Origin: Naegleria gruberi
Lineage: Eukaryota
Assembly (NCBI GenBank): GCA_000004985.1
Contig: GG738861.1
Length of the DNA: 64,000 nucleotides
Reading direction: 5' to 3' (one strand)
The notes under the pieces were generated by a model. That model saw only the letters and a list, made by a program, of their open reading frames with translations. It did no database searches and was not told where the DNA came from. The position numbers were made by a program, and so were the translations under genes. Shown piece after piece: positions 15,310 through 49,832 of this stretch (its first letter is position 1; each line of letters begins with the position of its first letter).

Positions 15310-16020
15310 TCAGTATTGATCTACCTCAGTATCAGGAAGGACTGTATAAACAACTTCTCCAGATTGGTCTTTGGTGAAAGTAATAAACTCTAGTTTTTCA
15401 CTTGATAAACTAGTACTATCCATTGTCTTTGTCATGACCTTGACAGCCAACTTTTTAGCAGCACCAATCTTCAAATCCTCCTTCCATTCTTGTTTCAAGA
15501 TTGATTGAGCAGCTTGATTATTAGCTCCGATTGCTGTAGCTTTCCATCCACCATAATTTCCTGAAGGATCAGAATGATACAATTGATATCCATATTGTTT
15601 ATCCCAACCAGCATACAAGAAACTGACGCCAAATGGTCTCATACCACCAAATTGTGTGTAACTTTGCTTTGAATCACAGAGAGTTTTTACAAGTTGTTCT
15701 ACTGGTATTGGTTCTTGATACATGAATTGATAACGTTGAGCGTGGAGACGAGCAGAGTTAATCAAAATGTTGGCATCAGCTGTAATACCAGCAACAGCAC
15801 ATCCAATATGTTTATCTAATTTGTACATCTTTTCTGTTTTCTTTTCATTATCGAGAAGCTTGGAAGTAATTTTCTTTTCAGCAGCTAATACAATACCATC
15901 GGTGGCAATAATACCGAGAGCAGCACCAGCATGGCTGATAGCTTCCATAGCATATTCGACTTGATACAATCGTCCTTCAGGTGAAAATGTTGTAGTTCTA
16001 TTGTCGTATCTTCTACTCAT
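15310..16020 (-). CDS. PSMA4: 20S proteasome subunit alpha type-4 (alpha3 / Pre9)
   Basis: The N-terminus '[32 protein letters not shown]' is near-identical to PSMA4 '[32 protein letters not shown]'. Further matches include '[10 protein letters not shown]', '[13 protein letters not shown]' and '[15 protein letters not shown]'. Confidence 0.93.
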
Positions 16021-16379
16021 TTTTTATAATGTTTATTACTTCCCTCAATCCAAAAATAACTTGAGAAATCCGCAGCATTTGGCTTGAAGTTTTTGATCAT
16101 CACAAAAATTTAATTTAAAATTATTGATGAAAATACAAAGCTGTGATCCGATGACAAGAAGAGGTTGTTAACAAACCAGATAATTGTTCTAGTTCTATTT
16201 GTTGAATAACAGGTGAATTCACAAAGATAATAACCTCTTTTTTAAGAGGATGATTAGAAAATGTAGAAAAGCTATTTTCAGAAAATTGCCTTACTTGAGT
16301 TGACTAAACAACGTGAGAAATTGTTTAAATATCAAATAGGCAAAAACAAGTTTAAATAACAAAAAAAACAATAATCAAG

Positions 16380-16586
16380 ATGGAAATCTCAAAGAAGGAA
16401 CGGAAAAAGTTTGGAACCACCATTAGTAAGCAACACAAGCCAAAAAAGACTAAAAAACAACAAGCAAATGTTTCAAATGTTTCCAATGTAAATCAAGATT
16501 TGGATCAGAATCAACAAAATGTATTCAGTGACAAACAAGCCAACTTTAATCCGTATGGTGTTGATAATTTGAGTCCAAACAAGTAG
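16380..16586 (+). CDS. Hypothetical small Lys-rich protein (68 aa)
   Basis: Real ATG after an A-rich leader in the spacer between the two proteasome genes. The composition is basic and low-complexity. It may be spurious. Confidence 0.2.
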   Translation: MEISKKERKKFGTTISKQHKPKKTKKQQANVSNVSNVNQDLDQNQQNVFSDKQANFNPYGVDNLSPNK

Positions 16587-16761
16587 ACATATTGTAAATA
16601 AATTCTCAGTTAGTGTTGAACAGCAAGGATTTGCTTTTTCTCTTTGATAATCCAAAATTCTTTAAAACCCAATTCATTAGATTGACATCTTTAAGAAGAA
16701 TTTGATATTTTTAAGATTGGGATAGTTACAATTTTTTTATATGATAATTTACAAAATGGAA

Positions 16762-17589
16762 TTATTCAGAGGTTTGCATTGCTGTGCTAATAGTTTCTTC
16801 AACAACCAACTTTGATTTCAATTCAAGAACCTTTTGGTTCAAAATAGCAGTCGTACCACGAGGAATAACATATTCACGACGATACTTTCTTCCAGAAGGT
16901 ACGTCATAACCACGAATATAGTTAGCTACACCTTCCTTATTAATGACACATAAATCTACATTTGAACCAGAACCCAAATCATTGTAAATACCAGCAGAAA
17001 TAGCCTTGTGAACAATAGCTTTAGCTTCTTCTTCAGACATATCATCCTTATATTCAGCTTCAAAAACTGACATGGCAGCCAATGATCCTGAACCCATAGT
17101 AACGAATGGTAATTTATCAGTAGAACCATGAGGATAGATTGTATAAAGAGAAGGTCCATTAACATCAACACCACCCAAAACCAAAGCAGCACTAACATGT
17201 CCTTGATATTTCCATAACATACGTTTAAACATTGTCATTGATGTATCAACACGTGATTGTTTACCTGTGGCATAACGATGGAGTTGTAATTTAGAACTGA
17301 TCAATGCAGTGGAATTTTCAGTATCGGCAGCAGTACCAGCACCACAACAATAAATGTTTGGAGCAATGTAGTGAATCTTTTCGCAATTCTTATCAGCGAC
17401 AATAGGACCTTCAGTAGCTCTTGTATCAGCTCCCAAAACAACACCATCCTTGTAAACTACACCACAAATTGTTGTACCAGTCTTGAGTACTTTTGGTGGT
17501 GTTACATTAAGATTTGATTGAAGATAAATGTTACGGGCAACATTATCAAATTCAAAGCCTCCAATTGTTGATGACATGTTTATATACAA
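16762..17589 (-). CDS. PSMB7: 20S proteasome subunit beta type-7 (beta2 / Pup1) with propeptide
   Basis: '[53 protein letters not shown]' matches PSMB7 '[53 protein letters not shown]'. The catalytic Thr follows an about 40-aa propeptide. Confidence 0.93.
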
Positions 17590-17920
17590 AATATGATGAA
17601 TATTAAATTCCTGTCCTACAATATTTGATGAAAATTTCCTAACACAAGCAGGGTGTTTTCAGGTATTGAATATTTTTTTGATTAATTTTTCTTCAGAACA
17701 AAGGTTTTCCAGCGTTGAGAATGGAATGGTGTTTTATTTTTAGCATGATAGAATTACTTGAAGAAAATTGGAAACAAAATTTAATTGTTTTTGCTTGTGG
17801 TTACATATAGTGGCAAGCCTCAAAGTTTTTTAAATAATAAAAATCAATCTTCTTGTAATTTATCAGAGTTCTTTACAAACTTTTTGAAATTTTCAATTAA
17901 GATTTCAGTTTCTTCTCAAT

Positions 17921-19384
17921 ATGAAAAAATTAGTAATTAAAAAAATGCCCAAACAGCAGCTGGATGAAGAATACCTTCGGGATGAATATTCAATTTCATC
18001 TCTGGCTATGATTTGTCACTCTACGGATCATGGTTATTATTTTTCTGATTATCAATTCTCGCAGGCTTGCCATTCAATTTCTCATATGATTTGTCTAGTT
18101 CAGAAATCAAGTGTTGCTAGATTGTATAATTCTCCAGAGGTTTCAACGAGACTTGGAATTATCAAAGTAAATTCAATATGGAATGAACCTTATAATATTG
18201 GTAAGATGGAAAAGTTTGGAAATGATTTTCAATTTAAAAAGATAAGGTATCAATATGCTTATTCAACACCATTCGTTGAGGCTCATCCATCGACAAATAA
18301 TGGAACGAGAAAGGTCATTGATTTCTATTGTTTGAAGGATAGCTTTAAATTCATTATTGATTTGAATCAGGAAAATATTTTTTATTCGAGTTTGAATGTT
18401 GAAAAGATACCAAAATTGTTGAGAAGTGAAATATTTTCAAATTGGAATAGCGTTATTCCTCAGCATATTTTCCTTCACAAACCGAATGAAAATGAATTTA
18501 ACAAAATGTGTATGATTGTTCATAACGAACAGGATACAGTACTGAAACCACTTATCATTAGAGATGAAGGGTCTTTGGACGAATTGAGGAAATACGATGT
18601 TAGAATACAACCTCTTCCATTGGATTCAAACAACTATCCATTATATTGGAGTTTTTTAACAAGACTAGACTGTATTGATGAAAATTATCTGACCTATAGT
18701 TATCAAGATGAAAAAAATAAGAAGATTTGTCACATTATTAGAAAAATATCTATCCAATACGATGAAGATACCAAATTATACAGCGGAAAATTATCAAAAT
18801 CTCCCTTACTGGACTTTTTTAAATTTTTCACAGACAATTCTAACATTTCTGGATCTTGCAGATTGACGGATAGTTGTTTCCTCTTTATGCTTTGTAAAAA
18901 TGGACCTTATTGGCACAGTGTTAAATATAAGGATTGGGGGACATTCACTCAAAATGTGAAATGGATTCTAGTTGACCTGAAAAACTCAACAATCAAAAAT
19001 ATTGAACCCTACTCTGGAAATTTGAAGAGCTCACAACCAATTACTAAAGTGGGTACTCTAGTTGATGATGATGGATTTGAAACTACCATCAAGAAAAAGC
19101 ATATCACTCTCAGAAAGAGTAGCACTGAAGTACGAACTGAGGGTGCCGATTTCCTGCATGTTGATTTGGTGGCTTATCAGCCTTTTAAGGGATATCCAGA
19201 GTTGGTAAATGTGATTTGTACTATCCCAGCCTGTGAAACAAGAACTGCACATAGTCAACCAAGGAAGGAAAGTCTCCACACAGTCATCCAAGTTCACTAT
19301 TGCTTTAAAATTCATGATGAATTTAGACAATTATTCAAGGAAACTCCTAAATCTTACAGCGATATTTATTTGAGATTTTGTTAA
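17921..19384 (+). CDS. Hypothetical protein, 487 aa, no family recognised
   Basis: Long uninterrupted ORF with a real ATG and balanced composition. It is transcribed divergently from the beta-7 gene. Confidence 0.4.
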   Translation: MKKLVIKKMPKQQLDEEYLRDEYSISSLAMICHSTDHGYYFSDYQFSQACHSISHMICLVQKSSVARLYNSPEVSTRLGIIKVNSIWNEPYNIGKMEKFGNDFQFKKIRYQYAYSTPFVEAHPSTNNGTRKVIDFYCLKDSFKFIIDLNQENIFYSSLNVEKIPKLLRSEIFSNWNSVIPQHIFLHKPNENEFNKMCMIVHNEQDTVLKPLIIRDEGSLDELRKYDVRIQPLPLDSNNYPLYWSFLTRLDCIDENYLTYSYQDEKNKKICHIIRKISIQYDEDTKLYSGKLSKSPLLDFFKFFTDNSNISGSCRLTDSCFLFMLCKNGPYWHSVKYKDWGTFTQNVKWILVDLKNSTIKNIEPYSGNLKSSQPITKVGTLVDDDGFETTIKKKHITLRKSSTEVRTEGADFLHVDLVAYQPFKGYPELVNVICTIPACETRTAHSQPRKESLHTVIQVHYCFKIHDEFRQLFKETPKSYSDIYLRFC

Positions 19385-19573
19385 TCCTGAGATGTTTGGC
19401 TATTCATTTTAGAATCTTTTACTCCCAATTCTTAAATCACCCAAAAACAGCCCTTGCTCGTTCCACTAGTGTAAGCAAAAGCAGGGAAAATTGAAATCGT
19501 TTTACCAGACTTTTCCTGAATCTTGATTTTAATAAAATATGCAGGAGATATTACAGAGAAATTATTTTACAAT

Positions 19574-20950
19574 TTATTGTCTAGCACCTTGGATCATGTA
19601 TTCCTTGTTAATAAGGTGGTTTGACTTTTCAACCAATTGAAGCAAATTCACAATATCGTGTGACCAAGAGTTCAAAACTTCATTATTGTCACCAGTTTGT
19701 AATTGTTTGAAAACAACAAGACCATCCAATCTGTCCATCTTGGCAAGAATTGTCTTGGAGGTAACCATTCTTGAAATGTATCCTTCAACTTCTTCTTCAC
19801 CCAAGTACAACAATGAGCACAAACGTTTAGTTGGAATTCTAGAATAAAATTGAGCAATGACACGAATATTCTTTTCAACAATTCTACTTCTGAGATCGGC
19901 ATAAGTTTCTGGAGAAGTCTTGAAAATTGGGTGATCCTTAATTAATGAACCAAATGTTGATTCGAATTGTGGCCAATTAATCAAACTACGATTTACAAAT
20001 TGCTTAAGCAAGTTTCTATATGGTTGTAATTGTGGTTCTTCTAATTTCTTTTCTTCAAAGGTTCTATGCATGAGATCGTTTTGTTCATTACCATATTCAG
20101 CCAAAACAATATATAAAACCATACGTTGTAAGATATTCATCCAATCCTTTTCATTTGCTTGAATGATAGGTGTAGTGAAAATTTGTTGGTATGAACGGAA
20201 AATATCTAAATATTGCTTCTTGTTATTATAGAAACGAATCATAAGTTCATGGAAACGAATCTTTAAATCTTGGTGAGATTCTTCAGAAATACTCTTCTTT
20301 GTAATTTTCTTTGATACAATGACAGCACGAACAAAATCTTGCTTTTCAATGCATAATCTAATAGATTCAAGAATAAATTCAATCTTTTCTCTAATTTCCA
20401 TACTTCCGATTGTTTCAACTTGAACATCTTGTAACAATGAAGCAGCTTCAGCAATATTTCCTTCTTCTTCTCTGATCTTTGCCAACATTCTAATAACTCT
20501 AGCACCTTCCAATTCAACAAATATTTTACCTTCAGTAATTTTACGAATATTATTGATTAATTCAATCTTTCTTTCCAAAGATGGAGTAGAATCAATATAT
20601 TTCATAGCTTCTTGAATCATCTTTTGAGTACCACCTCTTGATTGAGCACGTTTCTTACTAAGACTATTTAATTGATCATTCAATTCATCCCAAGCTTGAA
20701 CTTTAGCACAGAAAGCAATTATTTGGACAAGAATTTTAGAGAGATTTTCATAATCTTCAGCAAGACGAACAGTCTTTTCCAAAGCTAAAACAGGTTCAAG
20801 AACTTCCTTTAATTTGTTGATTCCTCCTTGATCCAAAGCAGTAGAAGCACTTTGAAGAGTGGCCTCGGTTTGTTCGGTATAATCAACATTCATCTTTTTA
20901 CTTTGTTGATCTTCAGAAGAATCTTCTGGATCGAATGTTGGAAGTGGCAT
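19574..20950 (-). CDS. PSMD12: 26S proteasome lid subunit Rpn5 / PSMD12 (PCI domain)
   Basis: It is collinear with human PSMD12. 'ITEGKIFVELEGARVIRMLAKIREEEGNIAEAASLLQDVQVETIGSMEIREKIEFILESIRLC' corresponds to '[63 protein letters not shown]'. The C-terminal PCI segment 'KTILAKMDRLDGLVVFKQ' corresponds to 'KTIFAKVDRLAGIINFQR'. Confidence 0.9.
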   Translation of the reverse strand: MPLPTFDPEDSSEDQQSKKMNVDYTEQTEATLQSASTALDQGGINKLKEVLEPVLALEKTVRLAEDYENLSKILVQIIAFCAKVQAWDELNDQLNSLSKKRAQSRGGTQKMIQEAMKYIDSTPSLERKIELINNIRKITEGKIFVELEGARVIRMLAKIREEEGNIAEAASLLQDVQVETIGSMEIREKIEFILESIRLCIEKQDFVRAVIVSKKITKKSISEESHQDLKIRFHELMIRFYNNKKQYLDIFRSYQQIFTTPIIQANEKDWMNILQRMVLYIVLAEYGNEQNDLMHRTFEEKKLEEPQLQPYRNLLKQFVNRSLINWPQFESTFGSLIKDHPIFKTSPETYADLRSRIVEKNIRVIAQFYSRIPTKRLCSLLYLGEEEVEGYISRMVTSKTILAKMDRLDGLVVFKQLQTGDNNEVLNSWSHDIVNLLQLVEKSNHLINKEYMIQGARQ

Positions 20951-21375
20951 TATGTTACTATTATTAAATTAGTATGGATTGGCTTGCAAATTGATGATGG
21001 ATATACAACACGAGTGTTAATGCAAAGCAATTACGCAACAATAGAACACTTGTATTTTTTTAATGTATTTTTGATTTTAAATTTTAAAAATAGAACTTTA
21101 CTTCCTCTTGCCATATGACAAAGCCAAATTTTTCATCTTCGTTTCTTACAACTGTAGAACTTTATTAAGAAAATTATTGAGCATCATCAATAGTTAATAA
21201 TTCTTAGAGTTGAAGTCACTTTACCATTAAGATTCGGTAATTTTTTGATTCAGTCAAGTCAAATAATTTTGAACATCCAGTTTTCGAAAGAATTGACTTT
21301 CCCGCTCTTCCATTGTTAACTAGAAAATTTAAAAAATATTCATATGAAAAAAAATAGTCGTTTTACTTCGATAAC

Positions 21376-24300: not shown

Positions 24301-25455
24301 CAATTGAGACACTTTGGTGAATCATTTGATCCAAAAGTCTGTTCAAAAATGTGCGATAATTGTTGTGATGAAACACCTGTTGAAAGAAAGGATTTCACAA
24401 AAGAAGCAGCATCCTTTGTTAAGCTTCTTAAGAGTATTGGTGCTTTTAGATGTACTCTGTCACATGTTGTATCAGTTTGGAGAGGTTCTAACACTCAAAA
24501 AATCAAAACTTTACAACATGATAAGCTTAGTGAGCATGGCTCTGGTAAATCAGTTTCTAAACAAGTTTCAGATTTCCTGGGTTCCAAACTTATTAGTGAG
24601 GGATATATTGAAGAAAAAGTACATGTTAATGATCAGTATGGTGGAAGTTATTCACAAATTGCTGCTTCAAAGAAGGCAGATCTTTTAATTACTGGTAAAG
24701 CTAAGTTTGAAATTCTGGCAAGAAGTAAGAATAAGAAGGCACCAAAGACCTCATTAGAAAAACATCTCAAGTCATCAAAATCAAACTCTTCGAAAGACTT
24801 TGAAAATGCTCTCAAGGAAGCTCTTACACAAAAGAGATCAGAATTGGCTACTGCTAGAGGACAAAGACCTTATGCAATTTTATCAACCAAAATTCTACAA
24901 GATCTCAGTGAAAAACAACCACTCGATATGGAATCTATTGCTTCCATTCCAGGTATGGGTAGACATGTTCTCTCTAACTTTGGTCTCATTTTCTTAGAGT
25001 TAATTCGTTCAATGAGACATAAGGCAATAGGAGATTGTGAACCAATGTCAGAAGCTGAAAAGAAAAAGTTTAGAGAAACCTATAGTAGTACTGGTAGTAG
25101 CAATACCTCAAAACTCAATTTTAAAACAAGTTTTACACGTCCTCAAACTGTCCATGATTCAGATGATGATATTGATGTGGAAAATATAGTTCTAGACGAT
25201 GATGAGCCAACAGCACCATCAAAAAAGGCTTCACTAGGTATTACAAAAGAGGAATGGGATGATATTGGTAATCTTGTGGAAGATTTGGATGACGACTTGT
25301 TGACTGAAAATATTTTCAATAGCACCTCTTCTTCTTCTACTACTCCTAGTGGTGGTTCAACCTCTAACTACCAGTCCACAACTACTAACAATAGTAACAA
25401 TGGCAACAGCTCTACTACGACAACTACTCCAAAGTTTAAATTCAAAAAACTTTAA
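21376..25455 (+). CDS. RecQ-family DNA helicase of the BLM/Sgs1 type (helicase core plus RQC zinc and winged-helix regions plus HRDC), 1359 aa
   Basis: The N-terminus is long and rich in N/S/T/D. The motif-I region is '[33 protein letters not shown]', and the DEAH box is '[19 protein letters not shown]'. The RecQ-Ct zinc cluster is 'CENDCECRR...CSKMCDNCC'. The HRDC-like segment is '[22 protein letters not shown]', followed by an acidic C-terminal tail. Confidence 0.9.
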
Positions 25456-25495
25456 AATTCTCTCCTTCAAGAAATTGCAAGAATTAATAAAAAAA

Positions 25496-27658: not shown

Positions 27659-27695
27659 TGATAATATAAATTATTTATTTTTCCAAGTTAACTTT

Positions 27696-36955: not shown

Positions 36956-36999
36956 ACTATTCAGCTTTTATTTGTACTTATATTTGGTCAACCAACAAG

Positions 37000-37212
37000 C
37001 TATTTCTTTTCAGATACTTTCTTTTCATCTTCATTCAAATTTTCATCCTTTTCTCTGTTTTCTACATGAAACATGGAAAGGTTTTCCTTGATGAAAGTTG
37101 GACTATCAGAATAGTTAACATAAGCCAAAGATCTTGAAAGAGGGGATCTTGGTTCGTTTTGGAATGCTGTATCTTTTGATTGTTGCTTATTTTCCTGCTT
37201 ATTGTCTGACAT
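37000..37212 (-). CDS. Hypothetical small acidic protein (70 aa)
   Basis: Real ATG (caaaaaATGtca). The product is hydrophilic and K/E/N-rich. Confidence 0.25.
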   Translation of the reverse strand: MSDNKQENKQQSKDTAFQNEPRSPLSRSLAYVNYSDSPTFIKENLSMFHVENREKDENLNEDEKKVSEKK

Positions 37213-37318
37213 TTTTTAGTGTACTCAAATAACCTAACAGGTTCTCATTAAATAAATGAATTGAGAATATTTCCAAATTCAAATAAAATCCAAATTAGTT
37301 TAAATTTTAGTTTAAGAT

Positions 37319-39144: not shown

Positions 39145-39356
39145 TTTTTTTGGCTTTAAATGCGTTCGTGTTTTGTTTTGGTGGTGTTTGCTGGCTCCGA
39201 AAACATGAACTTTTTTGCTTGCTAGTCCCAATTTGTTGCCCTTCTTTTTTTCACAAGGCCCACACAAACGAAAATCTATCTACAATTTTGCCATGCATTC
39301 TTGAAAAATTGATAATGTTGTGAATTATGAGAATTATCCTCTCTATTGTGACTATC

Positions 39357-41129: not shown

Positions 41130-41202
41130 TTTTTGTATGATTTTAGGAGATCAGCAGTTAATTCTGATAATTGAGATAATTTGTTGAGTATTAATAGATT
41201 TA

Positions 41203-43959
41203 TTAATCAACCATTCGCATATGTTCACTTTGAATATTTGTCCAAGCATTTTTGGCTACCTTTTCCACAAATTCCGATTTCTGGGTTGGCTTGATGAGAT
41301 TGAAGAAATTAGTGAAATTGTACATCTGCTTGTGGAAAGTTTGATTATGCTTGTCAGATAACTGTTTCAAGTGTTGCCATGTGTCACTTGAGAGAGATTG
41401 ACCGTAATTTGTTTGCATTATTTTCTTTAACAATCTTTGAGCACGAACACCATCTTCCATATTTCTCAAATAACTTTCACCACATTCACGAAGTAATTCA
41501 CACATGAATTCCAATTCAGTTCTGGCTGCTTTTGCTTCGAACTCTGGATCGTCTGAATAGCCGCTGAAATGATATTTAAATGGAGCGTCTGATGATTGTT
41601 TCAGATATCCTGTTATCGTTTCCTTCAATTTTGGACATTCTGCTGCTTTAGCACCGGTGAGCATTGCTGGGATACTTTGCTTTGAATCCATGTGGAAAAA
41701 GTCTGGATAAATTGTCACATGTTTTTCAAGTGGTTTGCCTTCACATACATTGATAGCAAATTTAGCCCAAAGTGCAGATGGATCCCAAATCTTCAAATAT
41801 TTCAAAACTGAAATGACATAATGTCCAGTATTGCTGTTCTTTTCATCATAGAATTGAGAACAGTTCCATGCACAGTTGAATTCAGCCAATCTATAAAGGA
41901 AGCTATCAATTTCTTCATTCTTTCTAACTTTGTAAATGTTACAATCATAGAAGGTTTGATAGAGGAAATTTTCTTTCTTTTCTTGATCTTCAATAACTAT
42001 CAAGTGAGTTTTGTCATCAAAAGAAATAACAAACTTGGCAAAGAAAAGAGCCACTTTCAATTTTGGAATATTGTTTTGTGCATCTTGGGAAGGAAGTGCA
42101 TTAGCATCGTATATAACAAATTTGAGATTGAGATATGGAACTTTGTCATTTCTGGCGTGACGTTTTCCTGGATTGTAATTAGCTTCTAAGTGTTTTGGAA
42201 CAACAGTGTTGATGACAATATACTCTTCAGCTTGTTTTGTATCAAGGTCACTGCTCTTTTTGTGTGCCAATGTTTGCACAGAGTTTTCAATCATCTTCTC
42301 ATCTTCTAAAGGAATTCTATTTTGAATAGATTTTACAATCATATCAGTTGCCTCTTCTGCGCCAAATACCTTTTCTTCTTTTCGGACCTCAGCTGGTTTA
42401 ATTGTTACTAATTGTTCACTGGAACTAGCAGGATAAATCACTTCTTCAAATGTGACACCTTCTACCTCAAATCCATTGGATTTGAGGAATCCAGCAAAGT
42501 TGTATCCAAATATGTCAATTATTTTACCGAATTGCATTTGGAAATTTTCAATGAAATGACCTAAATTCTCAAATTTATCCTTAGATTGTTGGTATTGTTG
42601 TTTTGCAAATTGTCCAATGTTCAATATGGTGACAACTGGGGAGTATTTACTAAGAACCGAGTTGTCCCACTGGTAACCAAAGCTTGAATAGTTTGAAGTT
42701 GTTTGGGTATTACCTCCTTGTTGGGTAGTGTACTGAACCCCTCTCATGCTTTGTCCATTATCTTCCGGATTGTAACTAGTTATTGGTTGAATATTATTTG
42801 ATTGAGCTGCCTTGGAAGTGTCAAAAAATGTATAGTCAACTAGTCCATCTATTATTTCATTATTAATTACCAAGAAAATACAAGTCTCTAAATCACTCTC
42901 AAAATGAGTAAGAACTGGCGAAGTAACAAAATGGAGGCCAGCATAATTTCCAATTTCACTGATATGAAGTAATTGTGGAAGAGCAACTTGTACTTCTGGG
43001 TGATCCTTTGGTACAAACCACATACTGATACTTTGCATTGAATGATTTTTTAGCATTTCATACAATCCAGTTCTTGAGCTTTCTTTGAATGATAAATAAA
43101 GAGTGTTTGGCTGTCCACCCATTTTAGGCCCATTTTCAAAATGGATTTTTGTGTATGTGACGGTATTGTAAAAATCAGTAAGTGGATTTGGATAATCAAT
43201 TTCATCATCATCTTTGTCAGATTGTTCAACAGCAATAATGTTAGGAGTAAGGCTGTCAAGAGAATCTGTTTTGCCTTCCATAAAATTTTCCAATATTTGT
43301 TGTACAATGACACTTCCAAAGTTTGCCTTCCTGTTTGGTGTTCTCCTCCTGTTGGTTGGACTTGAACAATTACTTAAAGAAGAGCCTAAAGAGTTAAACC
43401 TTAAAAAAGCCTGAATGAATTCATCCTCCTCATTTTGAACAGCATCTGAAATGAAACATGATTCTTTGGTTGTGCAACCTCTTTCTCCAACGCCACTTCC
43501 TCTTTGAGTTTTCATAGTGATGTAAGCCTGATAGTATTGGTTCTGATACTGGATCTCGAATACCAGGGCTACGAACTTGATTTGTGTTCTTCCTGGATTC
43601 TTTCCATAGTTTCCCACTTTAATAAAAAGTGATTTACCATCATCAGATTGTGTCACCTCTTTCGGTGTAATAGAAGTTTGAAATGTGACAATTCTTGTCA
43701 AGGGGTCAATGTGCATATCACTCAAATTTCCACTACCACCAAGACTGCTATTTCTCGTACTTATTACACTACTTGGTTCACACAAGCAAGCAGCCGAATA
43801 CAACAACCTAATGTTCCCATCTCCATAGGGATTATCAATAAAAACGTTGAATTTTCTGTTTTTCAAGTTATGGAAGGGACTCCACAACTTCAAGGAAAGA
43901 TACAACCCATCTCCAGCCAATAACTTCTTAGATAGAGTTTGCTCCGGCATCACATCCAC
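41203..43959 (-). CDS. Hypothetical protein, 918 aa
   Basis: A 2.7-kb uninterrupted ORF with a real ATG and balanced composition. No family recognised. Confidence 0.5.
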   Translation of the reverse strand: MDVMPEQTLSKKLLAGDGLYLSLKLWSPFHNLKNRKFNVFIDNPYGDGNIRLLYSAACLCEPSSVISTRNSSLGGSGNLSDMHIDPLTRIVTFQTSITPKEVTQSDDGKSLFIKVGNYGKNPGRTQIKFVALVFEIQYQNQYYQAYITMKTQRGSGVGERGCTTKESCFISDAVQNEEDEFIQAFLRFNSLGSSLSNCSSPTNRRRTPNRKANFGSVIVQQILENFMEGKTDSLDSLTPNIIAVEQSDKDDDEIDYPNPLTDFYNTVTYTKIHFENGPKMGGQPNTLYLSFKESSRTGLYEMLKNHSMQSISMWFVPKDHPEVQVALPQLLHISEIGNYAGLHFVTSPVLTHFESDLETCIFLVINNEIIDGLVDYTFFDTSKAAQSNNIQPITSYNPEDNGQSMRGVQYTTQQGGNTQTTSNYSSFGYQWDNSVLSKYSPVVTILNIGQFAKQQYQQSKDKFENLGHFIENFQMQFGKIIDIFGYNFAGFLKSNGFEVEGVTFEEVIYPASSSEQLVTIKPAEVRKEEKVFGAEEATDMIVKSIQNRIPLEDEKMIENSVQTLAHKKSSDLDTKQAEEYIVINTVVPKHLEANYNPGKRHARNDKVPYLNLKFVIYDANALPSQDAQNNIPKLKVALFFAKFVISFDDKTHLIVIEDQEKKENFLYQTFYDCNIYKVRKNEEIDSFLYRLAEFNCAWNCSQFYDEKNSNTGHYVISVLKYLKIWDPSALWAKFAINVCEGKPLEKHVTIYPDFFHMDSKQSIPAMLTGAKAAECPKLKETITGYLKQSSDAPFKYHFSGYSDDPEFEAKAARTELEFMCELLRECGESYLRNMEDGVRAQRLLKKIMQTNYGQSLSSDTWQHLKQLSDKHNQTFHKQMYNFTNFFNLIKPTQKSEFVEKVAKNAWTNIQSEHMRMVD

Positions 43960-44553
43960 TAAATTTTTCGTATTTTTTTTAAATTAATCTTTGCATCACG
44001 TTGGTGATGTTTTTTTTATAGTTGTTTTTGAAACGTGATCGTGCTTTCTTTACAACGTGATGGAAACGCATTTATTAAATAATGTAATTCCAAGTTGGAC
44101 ATTTAACTTGTTGCAAGTTAAAAAAAACAGCTAAAAAGAGTGGTGACTTTGCCGATTTAAATTGGCTCAAAGAAAGCACTTCCCTTCAGTCAACTGGCTC
44201 ATTTCCTACTCTAAATACATTAACTCTTTTAACCTTTCATTTTGTTCTTGTGGAATTGTATCTAGTTGGTTTTTAAAAACTATTGCGTTTGTTTTTTGAT
44301 AGTCCACACATGGAATTTCTTGCTCTAATCATATATTGATAGTGCTTGTGGGAACAACGTTATTATTTGATGAGTTGCGCTAATAGCCAATCATCGGCAG
44401 TTATTGTTGGACTCTTACTATCGATCACATGTTCAAGACGAAGGATGTTCTTTCATCTGCACATTTAGATTTTACAAACCTTCTCCAGTGTTTAACGTTC
44501 TTCATTTTTTTAATTTTTTTTAGAAATTTAATTTATTACAATTTACAGCACGT

Positions 44554-45306
44554 TTACTTCAAGTGCTCTTCAACAGCCGCTCTTGCAGTATTCATCAGCT
44601 TACGGAAATTGTTAATTGGATTACCAACATGGAAATCATCAGGTCCAGGAAACTTTTGCTCGGATTGGAGTTGTTTGACACGTTCTCTTTCGTTCCTTTC
44701 ATCTGCAATTTTCTTCTTTTTTGCCTCTCTTTCTTCTTGTTTGGCTTGTTTTTCTAATGCTTTCTTTTCTTGTTCAGCTTCTCTTGTTCTTTTCTTTTCT
44801 TCGCGTTTCTTTTCCTTCTCCAACTCCTCGGCTTGCTTTTCCTGTTTCTTCTTTTCCCTTTCTTGCTCCTTCTCTTCCTTTTTCTTCTTTTTTTGCCAAA
44901 AGGGACATTCTTCTCCTTCTGGGCAGTCGCCATCACCTGTGCAGCTCTTTTCTGTACAAGTCCCTCTTCTGTGACCACGACCATGACACTTACTACACAG
45001 TTGACTTGAGACTTTACAATGTTTGAAATAATAATAAAAAATTAAATATAATAATTATAACTTACCTTTAAAACTTGATGTTGCACTTGAGGCTACACTT
45101 GATGCTCTAGTGATACTGCTGATTGTGGACAGTTGGTCCTGTGCCAATTCTTGTGCATCATCTTTCCAAACAGGGAAGGTTGAATTCATCTGAGAATTGG
45201 AAAATGTATTTGTTGAAAAGGTATCTTGGGACCCACTTTGTACATTTTGAAAATCGAGTCCAACGAAAGGATTGAAAATTGGAGGAGATGTTTCAGATTT
45301 ATGCAT
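44554..45306 (-). CDS. CCHC zinc-knuckle protein with a K/E-rich coiled region; two exons
   Basis: Exon 1 is 45306..45066, an S/T-rich N-terminal part ending '...SSFK'. The intron is 45065..45012 (54 nt, GTAAGT...TGTAAAG), in phase 1. Exon 2 is 45011..44554 and reads 'VSSQLCSKCHGRGHRRGTC...' (C-X2-C-X4-H-X4-C), then an E/K-rich region, then '...KFPGPDDFHVGNPINNFRKLMNTARAAVEEHLK*'. An alternative acceptor 7 nt downstream (..TCAAG) would instead give a short, purely basic KR-rich ORF. Confidence 0.55.
44690..44900. repeat. About 200-nt near-perfect polypyrimidine(+)/polypurine(-) mirror-like tract (AAG/GAA-type), coding for the K/E-rich region of the CCHC protein
   Basis: The + strand reads 'cttcttttttgcctctctttcttcttgtttggcttgtttttctaatgctttcttttcttgttcagcttctcttgttcttttcttttcttcgcgtttcttttccttctccaactcctcggcttgcttttcctgtttcttcttttccctttcttgctccttctcttcctttttcttc'. 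All three frames on both strands stay open, which explains the spurious ORFs 44429..44974(+), 44721..45026(+) and 44754..44984(-). Confidence 0.7.
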
Positions 45307-45615
45307 AGATGAGCTTCCAATATTAACATCAATACTTCAAATAATCATTATCTGAAATATAATAATAAAAAACAAACCTTGAGGGATGATTCATATAAGA
45401 ATGAATATTCCATTGTGGAATAGTGTTTGGTTGGTTATTTGGTAACCAATTCCATTGGTGTGGATGTAATTGTTTATTATTTGCATTCTTTATATTTGGA
45501 ATTGACCAAACAATTTTGCTTTCCATTGACCATCTAGGGAATTCAATAATAGAAAGAAAGTTCCCAATACACTTGGTCTTCTCGGCATGAATGAAATACA
45601 ACAATATAAAAAAAT

Positions 45616-46857
45616 ATGGAGACAAGAAGTAGGATATTCACAAGTTCTGGCAGCACCAGTAACTTGTCAAATGCAGAGGAAAATACATTACCTGCTAATA
45701 TCCACCATCATCAAGTGAATGTAGAGAAGGAAACAGATCCAATACCTAATTTTAAAAGAACAGTCGATTCGAATAAGAAGATTTCTAATATCTTTAGGCG
45801 AATTGTGAGAAGTTGTTGCAATAAGATTCCATTTTTTGGTAGTTTTACTTCATCAAATGATGAAAGTATTGTTGGAAGAAAAGTTGTGGAACAAACTTCC
45901 GAAACCAATTTTCCATATTGTAAAATATTAATGCTAGTAATACTTGGTTTTCTAATTGCCTCCTTTATATTGGGAGTTGTACTTTACATGATTGTTTCCC
46001 GATGGGTAAGAGATCAAGCAGGTGATTTTATTGTTCATGAAATTGTTCGTAAAGGAAATTTAAAACACATTTTACAACAAGTGGTTGATCGTGTTTATTT
46101 GTATGATGTTGAGGGAGATTTCAAAAATCCAAGATATCAACTTGCAGTGGATACTTCTCATGATGGTGAATTCTCGGTTCTCGTTCAACACATGTTAAAT
46201 AATCCAGAGTTTGAGAATTATGAAGAACAAATCCATAGAAATGAGAAGAGATATACCATTGTTGATATTGGAGCTCATGATTGTGTTAGTGGTTCAAATA
46301 GTTTCAATTTTATCAAGATGGGATTCGATGCAATTGTTGTTGAGCCATCTCCAGTTAATATGAAATTGTGTAAGAGTAATTTGGAGAGAGCTAGAAGAAC
46401 ATTTAAATTTGATCAACATCATCCTCGTCAACGTATTGAATTTGTGGAGGCTGCCATTACTGATGCTGATGGAACAGCAACTTTGGGCAATAGAGATGAG
46501 AAGGATAGTTGGGGAATGCAATTCTTTGTGGATAAGGAGAATCCAAATGCTGGAAATCTTGGTAATGCTCCAGTTGTTAAAACTCTCAAATTTGGAACAT
46601 TTGCTGCGGAAAGTGAGCTTCCAAAGAAGTTTTCAGTCTTGTCTATCGATGCTGAAGGTCAAGATGTTAAGATTTTATTGAACTTCTTGAGAGAGGGCTA
46701 TAAACCATTATATTTGATTTATGAAGGACTTCATGGCACTGGTTTAAAGGTAGAAGTGATGAGTACCTATGGTTATCAATTGATTGGTGAGAGAGGATGG
46801 AATCAAATCTATGTTTACAGAGTTGAAACTGATACTATTTTAAAGAAAAAGAAATAG
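45616..46857 (+). CDS. FkbM-family SAM-dependent methyltransferase with an N-terminal signal anchor (type-II membrane topology)
   Basis: The TM helix is 'ILMLVILGFLIASFILGVVLYMIV'. The FkbM-type core is 'YTIVDIGAHDCVSGSNSFNFIKMGFDAIVVEPSPVNMKLCKSNLE...IEFVEAAITDADGTATLG'. Confidence 0.6.
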   Translation: METRSRIFTSSGSTSNLSNAEENTLPANIHHHQVNVEKETDPIPNFKRTVDSNKKISNIFRRIVRSCCNKIPFFGSFTSSNDESIVGRKVVEQTSETNFPYCKILMLVILGFLIASFILGVVLYMIVSRWVRDQAGDFIVHEIVRKGNLKHILQQVVDRVYLYDVEGDFKNPRYQLAVDTSHDGEFSVLVQHMLNNPEFENYEEQIHRNEKRYTIVDIGAHDCVSGSNSFNFIKMGFDAIVVEPSPVNMKLCKSNLERARRTFKFDQHHPRQRIEFVEAAITDADGTATLGNRDEKDSWGMQFFVDKENPNAGNLGNAPVVKTLKFGTFAAESELPKKFSVLSIDAEGQDVKILLNFLREGYKPLYLIYEGLHGTGLKVEVMSTYGYQLIGERGWNQIYVYRVETDTILKKKK

Positions 46858-46880
46858 ATGTATAATAAATAATATGTAAA

Positions 46881-48426
46881 TTATTTATTGCAACTATCTT
46901 TCATTTCAATATCGTCAGTTTCATTGGCCTTTTCTACAGCATCCTTATATTCCTCTTCAGAGAGGTATGGTCGAATGAGATCGAGTTTACCAATTCTTTG
47001 CAATCCTCTTCTCAATAATTTGGCCATACGAGGGCTTCTCTTAACAAGATCAGAATAAACCAAATGGACATTGGAGCTGTCACAAAAGTTTTGAGTGACT
47101 GCAAAGGTATCATCCAAATTCAAGACCATATGCCACCAAGTACTTGGTACAAAGATTAAATCACCAGGATATTGAACACATTCCCAAGGTCTTCTTCCTT
47201 GATTAAGGGCTTCATAATATTCATTGGTCAACCATTGAATTGGTTCAGAACAAGGTACATAGCTTGGAACTGGTTGAGCATTGTCCTTAATTTCAAATTC
47301 ATCTTCATAAATCTTGTTAATTTTACCTTCGTGTAATAATTTAGTCTTGATTTGCTTTTCGAATTGCAACTTTTCTTGAATCATTTCTTGTTCTGCACTC
47401 TTCATTTCTTCAATTGCTTCCTCCAAATCTTCACTCACATGACTCATTGGATAGAAGAGCCATCTCTTACGACCACTCAATAAGGCATTCCAAGCACTTG
47501 TCAAGTATGGATCCATGTGGAACTAATTACTCTGTTTAGTATAATTTAACACAAATAATACTTACTTGAGTACCACTTCTTGCAGGTCCAACAACCAGCC
47601 ATCTAAAGAGTGGTCTTTCATCAAGTGATAGACATTGCTCGAAAAAGTCTTCCTTGAATAATTGTGGAATTTCATATTCATCCAAAAGTCTTACATCTCT
47701 TTCTGCAAACTTTGAATCAAAAACATAGATTGGATTTTCATCTTGATTATGTTTCATATAATTGGCATAATTTTGAAACTTGATTTTGATATTGCCTTCC
47801 TTTCTGTGTTCATCGTATTTACTCAAATCCTTTCCTTCCTTTTTATCTTGAAGATATTCTCTGTACAATTCTGAATAATGAGGACCCAAGTGTGAAACTT
47901 GTTGATCTGTTTTAAATTCAACTTCACCATACTTTTCCAAGAATGAATCCAATTTCCAATTAGTCATGGCTTTCCAGCTTGAAAGAGCTCCTGTAATAAT
48001 TACAGGAATTTGAAACTTGTTATACTTTTCAGTAAATTGTTCATAAGTAATACTCTCGGCAGGTATTCTTTCAATGTGTGAAAATGGAATATCAAAAAGT
48101 GACATGTCAAATTGAGATCTACTCCATCTACTGTACAAGGTACCTGAAAATCCAGTAAATGGACATGGTTTCTCAATCTTTTTACTCAACCACCATGCAT
48201 GGATATAGGTATATTTCCATGATTTTTCATACCAAAAGTTTCCTTGAAATTCATTCAATGTAAATTGTCTCCACATACTATGATCTTCACTCAATACGAG
48301 TAGAGTTTTAGAAACCAATGAAAGATTACAAAGCTCACTCTTTGATAGGTATGGAATGATAATTTCAACAATACCATCATCAGGAATTTCCTGGAGTAAA
48401 CCCAATCCTTTTCTAATTATCATCAT
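46881..48426 (-). CDS. F-box / JmjC-domain protein (2-oxoglutarate/Fe(II)-oxygenase fold); two exons
   Basis: Exon 1 is 48426..47566. It carries the F-box 'IIPYLSKSELCNLSLVSKTLLVLSEDHSMWRQF' and the JmjC N-terminal part up to '...LVVGPARSGTQ'. The intron is 47565..47523 (43 nt, GTAAGT..TACTAAAC..TAG), in phase 0. Exon 2 is 47522..46881 and begins 'FHMDPYLTSAWNALLSGRKRWLFYP', which carries the HxD. The second His is in '...DLIFVPSTWWHMVLNLDDTFAVTQNF'. Confidence 0.8.
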
Positions 48427-48929
48427 TTGTTAATATCATTGTCATCATCATGAGACAATTCAACCATCATCATTATCAATATGATCACTTGTTTAATTTA
48501 AAGAACAACTTACTCTCTAATAATTGGCTTGAAATTTTCTTGTGCTTGTGCTGGTTCCTTGTTGATCGGATCAACAACAGATACTCCTGGAGCAGTGATT
48601 GTTGTCATGTGTTAATGGTGTGGAGTATGCAATGAGGTTTACCGGTATTTTTTTCTTATGTTCTAAAAAGAACAATTTGGTGTATTGTTCGATTTTGGAT
48701 AATTGGATGGCAATTCGAAATAATGTACATGAGGATGAACATTTGGTTTTTGGGTGCTCTTAGTAGATGGGGTTACATCCATGATTGATTTGCATTACAA
48801 TCATGGATGGAGAAAAGATAAGGCATTAAGTTTAGAATAAATCATTCGAAAAAAAGATTAATTGGTAACAGTGAATTTATTTGATACAAACTATACATTA
48901 CATTTTCATCTGAGAGAGATGAAGAGAGT

Positions 48930-49832
48930 TTAATTGCCATCGAGCAATGGAACATTGTCCAAAATACCCTTTTCAGGAGCATATTTACCATAGTGCAATT
49001 CATTCATGTCAGTGCTGGAAATCTTTGTCCAACCATCAGAACGAATCAAATATACATTGATAATACCACCAGAGTAAGCATCACGGTGAGTAGCGTGATA
49101 AATAGCACGACGACCTAATTCACAAGCTTCTTCTTCTGTCAAATCAGCACGATAACCTTGATCCAAAACACCATAGGCATATAATGATCCTGAACCAACT
49201 GAGAATCTTGTTCCCTTCAAACGAGTACCATCGTTATCAACCATGAACAAGTTTGGACCTGTGTGATCCCAACCAGCAATCATAGTACCCATAGAGAGTC
49301 CATGATCCTTATATTGATATACAATATTGCTGAGCAACTTTGATGCAGCAGCAACAGAAATACGACGCTTATTTCTCAATTCATACAATCTACATTGCAT
49401 ACCCAAATAACGTTCCCAAAATTGACAATCAGCAGCACCACCAGCCATAGTTCCCAAAAGGTATGGATTGATTTCAATGACCTTCTTAACATTTTGTGAT
49501 GAAATGTAATTACCCATAGAAGCACGGGAATCGACTGCAATCACAATACCCTTATTAAATACAAAACCTAATGTTGTAGTACCCTTGGCATAAGTCTTTT
49601 CCAATTTTTCCTTTTGATGTATAAAACCAGAATTATTGAGTGATGGTGGAAGAGCAAATCCTTGTTGTCCATCCAATCCGTATGAAATATCTAAACAAGG
49701 ATCTTGAAGAATAACATTATCTTCATCTTGAGGTCCAATAGAAAGTGAAGTAAAATCACTCGATAATACACTCGACAAGTTTGCTCCTTGCTTGAATGAT
49801 TTTGTTGTCTTTGTTGATGGGAATGAGAGCAT
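48930..49832 (-). CDS. PSMB5: 20S proteasome subunit beta type-5 (Pre2; chymotrypsin-like site) with propeptide
   Basis: '[91 protein letters not shown]' matches PSMB5 '[91 protein letters not shown]'. Confidence 0.95.

What the first reader, a model, noticed from the sequence alone, without database searches (positions are those of the whole stretch)
15310..49832. Four proteasome genes (alpha-4, beta-7, Rpn5/PSMD12, beta-5) within 35 kb, with two core subunits only 740 nt apart
With about 33 proteasome genes in a typical eukaryotic genome of about 10^4 genes, the chance of four falling in a 40-gene window is very small. Proteasome genes are dispersed in yeast and animals. This clustering suggests local co-regulation, such as a shared chromatin domain, or an ancestral duplication or translocation event. 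All four genes are on the minus strand.
Basis: partly seen in the sequence, partly recalled or inferred. Interest (0 to 1): 0.55.

Follow-up and report, generated by a model that had tools for sequence, protein, structure and literature searches.

The report
Young proteasome gene neighbourhood in Naegleria
Four ordinary proteasome subunit genes do sit unusually close together in this stretch of the Naegleria gruberi genome, but only one pair is also neighbours in related amoebae, so the cluster is a recent by-product of genome rearrangement rather than a conserved co-regulated unit.

Summary
The window is Naegleria gruberi nuclear DNA. The four ORFs are single-copy orthologues of PSMA4/alpha3, PSMB7/beta2, PSMD12/Rpn5 and PSMB5/beta5. 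All are on the minus strand, and they make up 4 of only 16 annotated genes, not 40. Under random gene placement this is rare, about 1e-4 per genome.

The cluster is not conserved. Only the Rpn5->beta2 pair is shared within the genus: adjacent in N. fowleri, 6.5 kb apart or less in N. lovaniensis. In N. fowleri, alpha3, beta2/Rpn5 and beta5 lie on three different contigs. In Willaertia, alpha3, Rpn5 and beta5 lie on three different contigs. In three species alpha3 sits next to an ADH gene, and in N. gruberi that ADH orthologue is 14 kb away.

The three core genes are ancient paralogues (20-28% identity), so this is not a local duplication. Unrelated genes on both strands are interspersed, and each proteasome gene has its own upstream region. 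The PACE-like TGGCAAG is at chance level.

A different candidate element, a GGAA-rich stretch followed by CTAAAAATA, lies upstream of proteasome genes in five heterolobosean species whether or not they are linked. It was found post hoc and is weak in N. gruberi.

Verdict: a real, statistically odd, lineage-specific co-location with no evidence of cluster-dependent regulation.

The parts
15310..16020 (-). 20S proteasome alpha3 subunit gene (PSMA4 / yeast Pre9 orthologue; annotated EFC45914, 236 aa)
   Evidence: Pfam Proteasome_A_N + Proteasome. PDB phmmer gives PSMA4 at 1e-95 and Pre9 at 1e-91. 93-94% identical to the N. fowleri, N. lovaniensis and Willaertia alpha3 genes. The Lys/Glu-rich C-terminal tail present in relatives and in P0121 is out of frame here.
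16021..16761 (.). 741-nt spacer between beta2 (upstream) and alpha3. It contains alpha3's own upstream region and an unannotated 68-aa ORF on the + strand (16380-16586).
   Evidence: Sequence read directly and ORF list. No Pfam match for the small ORF. The alpha3-proximal sequence CGGATTTCTCAAGTTATTTTTGG resembles the alpha3 upstream regions of N. fowleri and N. lovaniensis when compared by eye.
16762..17577 (-). 20S proteasome beta2 subunit gene (PSMB7 / yeast Pup1 orthologue; annotated EFC45915, 271 aa)
   Evidence: Pfam Proteasome + Pr_beta_C. PDB PSMB7 at 1.6e-104. The exact protein is in the collection as P0367. The Gly|Thr-Thr processing site, Asp17 and Lys33 are visible in the translation.
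17578..17920 (.). Divergent spacer between beta2 and the orphan gene.
17921..19384 (+). Lineage-restricted gene of unknown function (annotated EFC45807, 479 aa from Met-9), inserted on the opposite strand between Rpn5 and beta2
   Evidence: No Pfam family. Only 3 hits among 1.84 billion representative proteins. No homologue at the Rpn5/beta2 loci of N. fowleri or N. lovaniensis. AlphaFold model unusable, pLDDT 39.8.
19574..20950 (-). 19S lid subunit Rpn5 gene (PSMD12 orthologue; annotated EFC45916, 458 aa)
   Evidence: Pfam PSMD12-CSN4_N + PCI + RPN5_C. PDB PSMD12 at 8e-104 and yeast Rpn5 at 1.7e-85. 100% identical to the N. gruberi protein P0001.
20951..21375 (.). Divergent spacer between Rpn5 and a RecQ helicase gene. 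It holds GGAAGTAAAGTTCTATTTTTAA (21084-21105, -), AAAATCAAAAA (21068-21078, -) and TGGCAAG (21107-21113, -).
   Evidence: RecQ identified by Pfam.
48930..49832 (-). 20S proteasome beta5 subunit gene (PSMB5 / yeast Pre2 orthologue; annotated EFC45924, 300 aa)
   Evidence: Pfam Proteasome. PDB PSMB5 at about 1e-91. 100% identical to N. gruberi P0247 and 83% identical to N. fowleri beta5. Gly|Thr-Thr-Thr, Asp17 and Lys33 are visible in the translation.
49833..50191 (.). Upstream region of beta5 (divergent with an HMG-box gene). It holds GGAAAGAGGAAAAAATATTTTATTTTTAG (49863-49891, -), that is, the CTAAAAATA core inverted, 31-59 nt before the ATG.
240..1448 (-). Zinc-type alcohol dehydrogenase gene. 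It is the orthologue of the gene directly adjacent to alpha3 in N. fowleri, N. lovaniensis and Willaertia, and so marks alpha3's ancestral neighbourhood.
   Evidence: Pfam ADH_N + ADH_zinc_N_2. tblastn gives 49-56% identity to the ADH next to alpha3 in L004, L006 and L007.

Best explanation
This is a lineage-specific co-location of four independently transcribed, single-copy housekeeping genes for the 26S proteasome in Naegleria gruberi. It was assembled by ordinary chromosomal rearrangement and is not an operon-like or selection-maintained unit.

Shown:
- An older neighbour pair, Rpn5 followed by beta2 on the same strand, exists throughout the genus Naegleria. It tolerates insertions: an orphan gene in N. 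gruberi, and GH2 plus NHL-BTB genes in N. lovaniensis.
- alpha3 and beta5 are unlinked to that pair in every other species examined.
- alpha3's ancestral neighbour (ADH) is now 14 kb away in N. gruberi.

Inferred:
- In the N. gruberi lineage, breakage next to alpha3 joined it to the downstream side of beta2, and beta5 ended up 28 kb away on the same scaffold.
- Each gene is driven from its own upstream region.
- Any coordinated expression comes from trans-acting factors that recognise elements repeated at each gene. The candidate is a GGAA-rich stretch followed by CTAAAAATA, often with ATCAAAA downstream, which is seen at linked and unlinked proteasome genes alike.
- The proximity itself contributes little or nothing.
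For: Organism and identities.

Conservation:
- N. fowleri has Rpn5(+) 8231-9622 directly followed by beta2(+) 10001-10831 (L009; same layout in a second strain, L011).
- N. lovaniensis has two copies of the pair with 1-2 genes inserted (L001/L002).
- Rpn5 has no proteasome neighbour within 10 kb in Willaertia (L003) or Acrasis (L010).
- alpha3 lies in a conserved alpha3-ADH-FF context in N. fowleri, N. lovaniensis and Willaertia, with no proteasome neighbour.
- N. fowleri beta5 has no proteasome neighbour.
- Contigs differ for alpha3, beta2/Rpn5 and beta5 in N. fowleri, and for alpha3, Rpn5 and beta5 in Willaertia.
- Apart from beta2, Rpn5, alpha3, ADH and beta5, no window gene has a homologue in the fetched relatives' loci. 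This fits the published low N. fowleri / N. gruberi synteny (bioRxiv 10.1101/2020.01.16.908186).

Anatomy:
- Unrelated genes on both strands lie between the four genes.
- Spacers are 741 nt, 2 kb and 28 kb.

Motif:
- CTAAAAATA on either strand lies within 250 nt upstream of 8/14 proteasome genes against 1/76 control genes.
- ATCAAAA is found in 9/14 against 4/76.
- Both include unlinked genes in four other species.
Against: Random placement makes the four-gene arrangement improbable: about 1e-4 per genome. Even taking the Rpn5-beta2 pair as given, my own estimate for gaining an adjacent alpha3 plus a beta5 within about 15 genes is roughly 3e-4. A purely neutral account therefore has to invoke the look-elsewhere effect.

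The Rpn5-beta2 pair survived in three species although almost all other local synteny between N. gruberi and N. fowleri is gone. That could reflect weak selection.

The positions of the other ~29 proteasome genes in N. gruberi could not be examined.

The candidate promoter element was defined after looking at the data, and orthologous promoters are not independent. A weight matrix trained on the other species does not recover the four N. gruberi upstream regions.
Confidence: 0.6

Rival explanations
1. The neighbourhood is favoured by selection. Bringing subunits of one stable complex together improves co-expression or dosage balance, as proposed for yeast complex subunits by Teichmann and Veitia 2004. 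N. gruberi would then be in the process of accreting proteasome genes around an old Rpn5-beta2 core.
For: The probability under random placement is low. The Rpn5->beta2 order and orientation are retained in N. gruberi, N. fowleri and both N. lovaniensis copies despite extensive rearrangement of everything around them. All four genes are on the same strand. alpha3 was joined precisely at the downstream end of beta2.
Against: Relatives function with alpha3, beta5 and the Rpn5/beta2 pair on separate contigs. Insertions between Rpn5 and beta2 were tolerated twice. Unrelated genes are interspersed, among them an orphan gene, a RecQ helicase and a 2335-aa coiled-coil protein. An adjacent pair among 33 genes is expected in about 6% of random genomes. 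[quoted passage not shown] No co-expression data are available.
Confidence: 0.3
2. Rpn5, beta2 and alpha3 form an operon-like, co-transcribed unit: one primary transcript or read-through transcription on the minus strand.
For: Same strand and order. In N. fowleri the Rpn5-beta2 spacer is only 378 nt.
Against: An opposite-strand gene lies between Rpn5 and beta2 in N. gruberi. The spacers of 741 nt and 2 kb are large for this compact genome. beta2 carries its own promoter-like module about 35 nt before its ATG in N. fowleri and N. lovaniensis, and alpha3 carries its own conserved proximal upstream sequence. To my knowledge, polycistronic nuclear transcription has not been described in Naegleria.
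Confidence: 0.04
3. The cluster is a remnant of local gene duplication of proteasome subunits.
For: Three of the four genes share the Ntn-hydrolase proteasome fold.
Against: Pairwise identity is only 20-28%. Each gene is the clear orthologue of a different human or yeast subunit, so the duplications predate the last eukaryotic common ancestor. Rpn5 is unrelated in fold. Outgroups have the genes dispersed.
Confidence: 0.01
4. The co-location is an assembly artefact: a mis-join in the N. gruberi draft scaffold.
For: The reference is a 2010 draft assembly. alpha3 carries an apparent frameshift, which hints at local sequence error.
Against: The window has no Ns. alpha3, beta2 and Rpn5 lie within 5.7 kb of continuous sequence. 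The Rpn5-beta2 linkage is independently confirmed in two other species. Only the 28-kb link to beta5 rests on this single assembly.
Confidence: 0.03

Closest known systems
Clustering of genes for subunits of stable complexes and 'functional neighbourhoods' in eukaryotes (Teichmann & Veitia 2004, cited in PMC2951340 and PMC4150778; Al-Shahrour et al. 2010, PMC2951340)
   Same: Non-homologous genes for one stable complex lie closer together than random placement predicts. They are separately transcribed and have unrelated genes between them.
   Different: Those reports are statistical genome-wide tendencies. Here a single locus was seen, its genome-wide context could not be measured, and cross-species comparison shows that only a two-gene core is conserved.
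Vertebrate MHC-linked immunoproteasome genes PSMB8/PSMB9 with TAP1/TAP2 (own knowledge)
   Same: Two catalytic beta-subunit genes lie within a few kb of each other in a eukaryote. This is the classic example of linked proteasome genes, with shared inducible regulation.
   Different: Those are specialised, interferon-inducible paralogues embedded in an antigen-processing cluster that is conserved across jawed vertebrates. Here the genes are the constitutive alpha3, beta2, beta5 and Rpn5, the arrangement is not conserved, and no shared inducible control is shown.
Prokaryotic proteasome operons (actinobacterial prcB-prcA with pup/mpa/dop/pafA; archaeal psmA in the exosome superoperon) (own knowledge)
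   Same: Alpha- and beta-type subunit genes lie side by side on one strand.
   Different: Those are polycistronic units with overlapping or near-abutting genes and deep conservation. Here there are 741-nt to 28-kb gaps, an opposite-strand gene inside the cluster, separate promoters, and no conservation beyond the genus.
Dispersed proteasome regulons driven by a shared cis-element: yeast Rpn4/PACE (GGTGGCAAA), animal Nrf1/ARE, plant NAC53/78 (own knowledge)
   Same: If the GGAA-rich + CTAAAAATA module is real, Heterolobosea would coordinate proteasome genes in the same way: one element repeated at each gene, independent of position.
   Different: The sequence is unrelated to PACE, which was tested and is absent. 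The binding factor is unknown. The element resembles a TATA-like or MADS/MEF2-like A/T core and may simply be a core-promoter type. It has been seen at only four subunit genes.

Membership tests
20S proteasome alpha3 (PSMA4/Pre9) | Alpha-type N-terminal signature plus proteasome fold; closest to PSMA4/Pre9 rather than to other alpha types | tested here: met
   PF10584 (3.7e-14) and PF00227 (6.5e-58). PSMA4 at 1e-95 and Pre9 at 1e-91, against about 1e-48 or weaker for other eukaryotic alpha types (alpha2 about 1.5e-50).
20S proteasome beta2 (PSMB7/Pup1) | Proteasome fold with the beta2-specific C-terminal extension; propeptide cleaved at Gly|Thr1; Asp17 and Lys33 present | tested here: met
   PF00227 at 1.5e-52. 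PF12465 scores 24.7 bits, just under the 25-bit cut-off. PSMB7 at 1.6e-104, against about 1e-29 to 3e-30 for beta1. ...KTG|TTICG..., D17 and K33 read from the translation.
20S proteasome beta5 (PSMB5/Pre2) | Closest to PSMB5/Pre2; Gly|Thr1 processing site with Asp17 and Lys33 | tested here: met
   PSMB5 at about 1e-91 and Pre2 at 1e-83. ...AKG|TTTLGF..., D17 and K33 read from the translation.
19S lid subunit Rpn5 (PSMD12) | PSMD12/CSN4 N-terminal helical repeat + PCI domain + Rpn5 C-terminal helix; closer to Rpn5 than to CSN4 | tested here: met
   PF22241 at 4.8e-80, PF01399 at 5.2e-15 and PF18098 at 4.4e-13. PSMD12 at 8e-104 against CSN4 at 4e-15.
Operon-like / polycistronic gene cluster | Uninterrupted same-strand genes with short spacers and no internal promoters | tested here: not met
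   An opposite-strand gene at 17921-19384 lies between Rpn5 and beta2. Spacers are 741 nt, 2 kb and 28 kb. There are 12 unrelated annotated genes in the interval. Promoter-like modules lie directly upstream of beta2 and beta5 orthologues.
Operon-like / polycistronic gene cluster | A common transcript | not testable with these tools
   No transcript data are available.
Evolutionarily conserved (selection-maintained) gene cluster | The same genes are linked in independently diverged relatives while the surrounding synteny decays | tested here: inconclusive
   Met for the Rpn5-beta2 pair within Naegleria but not in Willaertia or Acrasis. Not met for alpha3 or beta5 in any relative.
Tandem-duplication gene cluster | Neighbouring genes are each other's closest paralogues | tested here: not met
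   20-28% identity between alpha3, beta2 and beta5. Each is orthologous to a different universal subunit.
Rpn4/PACE-type proteasome regulon | GGTGGCAAA (PACE) upstream of the proteasome genes, above background | tested here: not met
   No exact PACE in the window. With up to 1 mismatch there are 15 matches against 11.3 expected, none in the four upstream regions. TGGCAAG occurs 12 times against 6.5 expected, and 4/100 shuffles reach 12. TGGCAA is in 0/16 proteasome upstream regions against 9/85 controls.
Rpn4/PACE-type proteasome regulon | Presence of an Rpn4 orthologue | not tested

The most novel reading that the evidence does not exclude
N. gruberi is accreting constitutive proteasome genes around a genus-old Rpn5->beta2 core because proximity improves stoichiometric co-expression. 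Heterolobosea would also possess their own proteasome regulon element, a GGAA-rich stretch followed by CTAAAAATA, with a MADS/MEF2-like or TATA-like core. This would be analogous to, but unrelated to, yeast Rpn4/PACE, animal Nrf1/ARE and plant NAC53/78. It would amount to an independently evolved proteasome control circuit in a deep-branching eukaryote lineage, plus a rare case of complex-subunit clustering caught in formation.
Probability: 0.15. Interest if true: 0.6.

Novelty: new member of a known kind. Interest (0 to 1): 0.3.

Why it matters
If the co-location were selected, it would be a clean, datable example of gene-order evolution driven by the need to balance the subunits of one complex, in a free-living protist with a compact, rearrangement-prone genome. 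As it stands, the main value is negative. The cluster is lineage-specific, so it should not be read as evidence for a proteasome chromatin domain or for an ancient arrangement.

Two by-products are worth a cheap follow-up:
- the genus-wide Rpn5->beta2 neighbour pair;
- a candidate promoter element shared by linked and unlinked proteasome genes in Naegleria, Willaertia and Acrasis. I found no paper describing how Heterolobosea regulate proteasome genes, and this could make the question testable. N. fowleri is a lethal pathogen for which proteasome inhibitors are of interest; that relevance is from my own knowledge.

Tried and rejected
- Exact look-ups of the window's alpha3, Rpn5 and beta5 proteins found no gene positions on record. 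The rest of the 507-kb N. gruberi scaffold and the other proteasome genes therefore could not be fetched, and genome-wide mapping was impossible with these tools.
- Two metagenome scans for Rpn5 relatives, one with a single protein and one with a five-sequence alignment, returned nothing.
- PACE/TGGCAAG is rejected as being at chance level.
- A weight matrix built from the eight motif instances in other species did not rank any of the four N. gruberi upstream regions in the window's top 40. The canonical module is therefore not claimed for N. gruberi; only looser matches are reported.
- A search for any shared 8-12-mer among the four N. gruberi upstream regions gave only ATCAAAAA, which 3.7% of random control quartets equal or beat. 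The 10- and 12-mers were unremarkable.
- The orphan gene between Rpn5 and beta2 was checked as a possible proteasome factor. It has no Pfam match and only 3 relatives in 1.84 billion representatives, and its AlphaFold model has pLDDT 39.8, so no fold search was run.
- The remaining large ORFs were scanned for other proteasome or assembly-chaperone genes. None was found, only two F-box proteins.
- Literature searches found no report of proteasome gene clustering or proteasome promoter elements in Naegleria. The Teichmann & Veitia paper is not held in the library.

Full report
**What the window is.** The window is 33% G+C, gene-dense and nearly intron-free, with no Ns. The Rpn5, beta5, beta2 and several other ORF products are 100% identical to annotated Naegleria gruberi NEG-M proteins on a 507,294-bp scaffold.

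**Check of the observation.**
- 15310-16020 has the alpha-type N-terminal signature plus the proteasome fold. It matches PSMA4 (1e-95) and yeast Pre9/alpha3 (1e-91) far better than any other eukaryotic alpha type, which score about 1e-48 to 1e-50.
- 16762-17589 (annotated start 17577) is PSMB7/beta2 with the beta2 C-terminal extension.
- 19574-20950 is Rpn5/PSMD12, with all three diagnostic domains.
- 48930-49832 is PSMB5/beta5.

The beta2 and beta5 translations show the Gly|Thr1 processing site, Asp17 and Lys33, so both look catalytically competent (read directly). The alpha3-beta2 gap is 741 nt.

There are two corrections. First, the interval contains 16 annotated genes, not about 40: UniProt identifiers run along the scaffold from D2VBI9 to D2VBK4. 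No further proteasome-fold gene is hidden in the window (tblastn). None of the other large ORFs is a proteasome or assembly factor. They include a Rad1/PCNA-like protein, a RecQ helicase, an aldehyde dehydrogenase, a JmjC F-box protein, HMG-box proteins and several orphans.

**Is it more than chance?** I placed 33 genes at random among 15,727 genes; the N. gruberi gene count is from my own knowledge of the genome paper. At least four fell within a 17-gene span in 1.2e-4 of simulated genomes, and at least three within a 4-gene span in 4e-4. A simple adjacent pair occurred in 6%. The four-gene arrangement is therefore genuinely unusual under the naive null, while a single adjacent pair is not. 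These figures are per genome and per gene class. A scan that would flag any clustered complex in any window carries a substantial look-elsewhere penalty that I cannot quantify.

**Cross-species test.** This is the most informative evidence.
- Rpn5 and beta2. In N. fowleri, Rpn5 is immediately followed on the same strand by beta2 with a 378-nt spacer (L009). A second strain has the same layout (L011).
- N. lovaniensis carries two 99.3-99.6% identical copies of the pair on one contig. GH2 and NHL-BTB genes are inserted between Rpn5 and beta2, and one copy is partly inverted (L001/L002).
- In N. gruberi the same order and orientation persist, with one orphan gene inserted on the opposite strand.
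- In Willaertia magna and Acrasis kona, Rpn5 has no proteasome neighbour within 10 kb.
- alpha3. In N. fowleri, N. lovaniensis and Willaertia it sits in a conserved alpha3(+) / ADH(-) / FF-domain(-) context, with no proteasome gene within 10 kb, and on a different contig from Rpn5/beta2.
- The orthologue of that ADH (49-56% identity) is in the N. gruberi window at 240-1448, 14 kb from alpha3 and in changed relative orientation. A rearrangement next to alpha3 is therefore the simplest account of how alpha3 came to lie downstream of beta2.
- beta5. N. fowleri beta5 is on a third contig with unrelated neighbours. Willaertia beta5 is on a contig different from that species' alpha3 and Rpn5.
- Apart from the proteasome genes and ADH, no N. 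gruberi window gene has a homologue in any fetched locus. [quoted passage not shown]

The four-gene cluster is thus specific to the N. gruberi lineage. It is built on a genus-level two-gene core that tolerates insertions.

**Duplication.** alpha3, beta2 and beta5 are only 20-28% identical to each other, and each is the orthologue of a different universal subunit. The 'ancestral duplication' reading is rejected.

**Shared regulation.** The PACE idea fails.
- TGGCAAG occurs 12 times in the window against 6.5 expected. 4 of 100 shuffles reach 12, and most sites are in coding sequence.
- GGTGGCAAA has no exact match. Its one-mismatch matches (15 against 11.3 expected) avoid the four upstream regions.
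- TGGCAA is in none of 16 proteasome upstream regions against 9 of 85 controls.

Among the four N. gruberi upstream regions, the only shared word is ATCAAAAA, which 3.7% of random quartets of control promoters equal or beat.

Comparing 14 non-redundant proteasome upstream regions from five species with 76-78 control upstream regions from the same loci did turn up a recurrent module. It is a GGAA-rich stretch, then CTAAAAATA, then often AAAATCAAAAA.
- CTAAAAATA (either strand, within 250 nt of the ATG) is present at 8/14 proteasome genes against 1/76 controls (Fisher 3.3e-7).
- ATCAAAA is present at 9/14 against 4/76 (1.6e-6). The A+T content of the two sets is similar.
- The pattern GGAA-N(1-12)-[CGA]TAAAAA[TC]A has 11 distinct hits in 507 kb of sequence counted on both strands. 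Eight lie within about 210 nt upstream of a proteasome gene: Rpn5 and beta2 of N. lovaniensis; Rpn5, beta2 and beta5 of N. fowleri; alpha3 and (inverted) Rpn5 of Willaertia; and Rpn5 of Acrasis.

The caveats are serious.
- The pattern was defined after seeing the data.
- After correcting for the number of words tested, the evidence is only moderate.
- Orthologous promoters are not independent.
- Only four subunit genes were available.
- A weight matrix trained on the non-gruberi instances does not recover the N. gruberi promoters. Looser matches exist there at beta2 (17735-17743), Rpn5 (21084-21105) and beta5 (49863-49891).

The element may be a TATA-like core promoter or a factor-binding site; its A/T core resembles a MADS/MEF2 site. 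Its distance from the ATG varies from about -35 at beta2 and beta5 to about -200 at Rpn5, and it is inverted at two genes. Whatever it is, it occurs at unlinked genes, so coordinated expression would not depend on clustering.

**Most likely account (confidence 0.6).** This is a recent, rearrangement-born co-location of four independently transcribed housekeeping genes, with a genus-old Rpn5->beta2 pair as its seed and no cluster-dependent function. The main rival (0.3) is weak selection for proximity of complex subunits, for dosage balance or co-expression as proposed for yeast complexes. That reading is favoured by the low random-placement probability and by the survival of the pair. It is disfavoured by the dispersed arrangement in all relatives, by the tolerated insertions and by the interspersed unrelated genes. 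Operon-like co-transcription (0.04), an assembly artefact (0.03) and a duplication origin (0.01) are minor.

**Comparison with known systems.** The arrangement works like the loosely defined 'functional neighbourhoods' and complex-subunit clustering described statistically in yeast and animals. It is not a member of any operon-type, tandem-duplicate or PACE-type class, since each defining feature tested was not met. It differs from the vertebrate PSMB8/PSMB9 pair in involving constitutive subunits and in lacking conservation. I found no paper describing this locus or any proteasome promoter element in Naegleria.

**Verdict.** The finding is modestly interesting (0.3). It is a new instance of a known kind of phenomenon, with two testable by-products.

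Noticed in passing
L001:9793-9812 and 17818-17837; L009:8025-8043 and 9955-9974; L008:9949-9969; L007:9948-9968; L003:9802-9822 (inverted); L010:9959-9976; window 17735-17743, 21084-21105, 49863-49891: A GGAA-rich stretch followed by CTAAAAATA, often followed by AAAATCAAAAA, recurs just upstream of proteasome genes in N. fowleri, N. lovaniensis, Willaertia, Acrasis and, more loosely, N. gruberi. CTAAAAATA is found at 8/14 proteasome upstream regions against 1/76 controls. It is a candidate heterolobosean proteasome promoter element, found post hoc.
   Followed up: partly
window 15262-15312 (minus strand): alpha3 stops at ...VDQY*, but the next reading frame continues [10 protein letters not shown]..., which matches the Lys/Glu-rich tail present in P0121 (otherwise 100% identical, 256 aa) and in the N. 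fowleri and Willaertia alpha3 proteins. A 1-nt frameshift, either a sequencing error or a strain difference, truncates the annotated 236-aa protein.
   Followed up: partly
L001 and L002 (N. lovaniensis PYSW02000044.1, 126.7-148.1 kb and 237.1-258.5 kb): There are two 99.3-99.6% identical copies of the Rpn5+GH2 block and of the beta2+319-aa+rhodanese block about 110 kb apart. One is rearranged or inverted, and repeated NHL/BTB genes sit at the junctions. This is either a recent segmental duplication or an assembly duplication.
   Followed up: partly
window 17921-19384 (+): The annotated 479-aa protein inserted between Rpn5 and beta2 is almost an orphan. It has only two relatives (35-36% identity) among 1.84 billion representative proteins, no Pfam domain, and an AlphaFold model with pLDDT 39.8.
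   Followed up: yes
window 16380-16586 (+): An unannotated 68-aa basic ORF (MEISKKERKKFGTTISKQHKPKK...) lies on the opposite strand in the alpha3-beta2 spacer. It has no Pfam match, and whether it is a real gene is unknown.
   Followed up: partly
window 10647-14264 (+): A large HMG-box protein carries about six copies of an acidic run followed by (G/A)(N/S)IFF(S/A) and then a Lys-rich stretch (for example EEDESFGNIFFSKQKQK and DEDEAFGNIFFSKPSSK). This is a repeated short linear motif of unknown function. A second HMG-box gene lies at 50192-51784, next to beta5.
   Followed up: no
window 46881-47516 and 47536-48426 (-): Two adjacent ORFs together encode one F-box + JmjC/cupin protein, with the halves separated by about 20 nt. 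This implies a short intron or a frameshift. A second F-box protein, fused to a Ras-like GTPase domain, lies at 62957-63898.
   Followed up: no
window 240-1448 (-) versus L004, L006 and L007: alpha3 / ADH / FF-domain (PRPF40-like) micro-synteny is conserved from Willaertia to N. fowleri and N. lovaniensis. The upstream neighbour of alpha3 differs in every species (tubulin, a kinase, a TPR protein, and beta2 in N. gruberi), which suggests a recurrent breakpoint just upstream of alpha3.
   Followed up: partly
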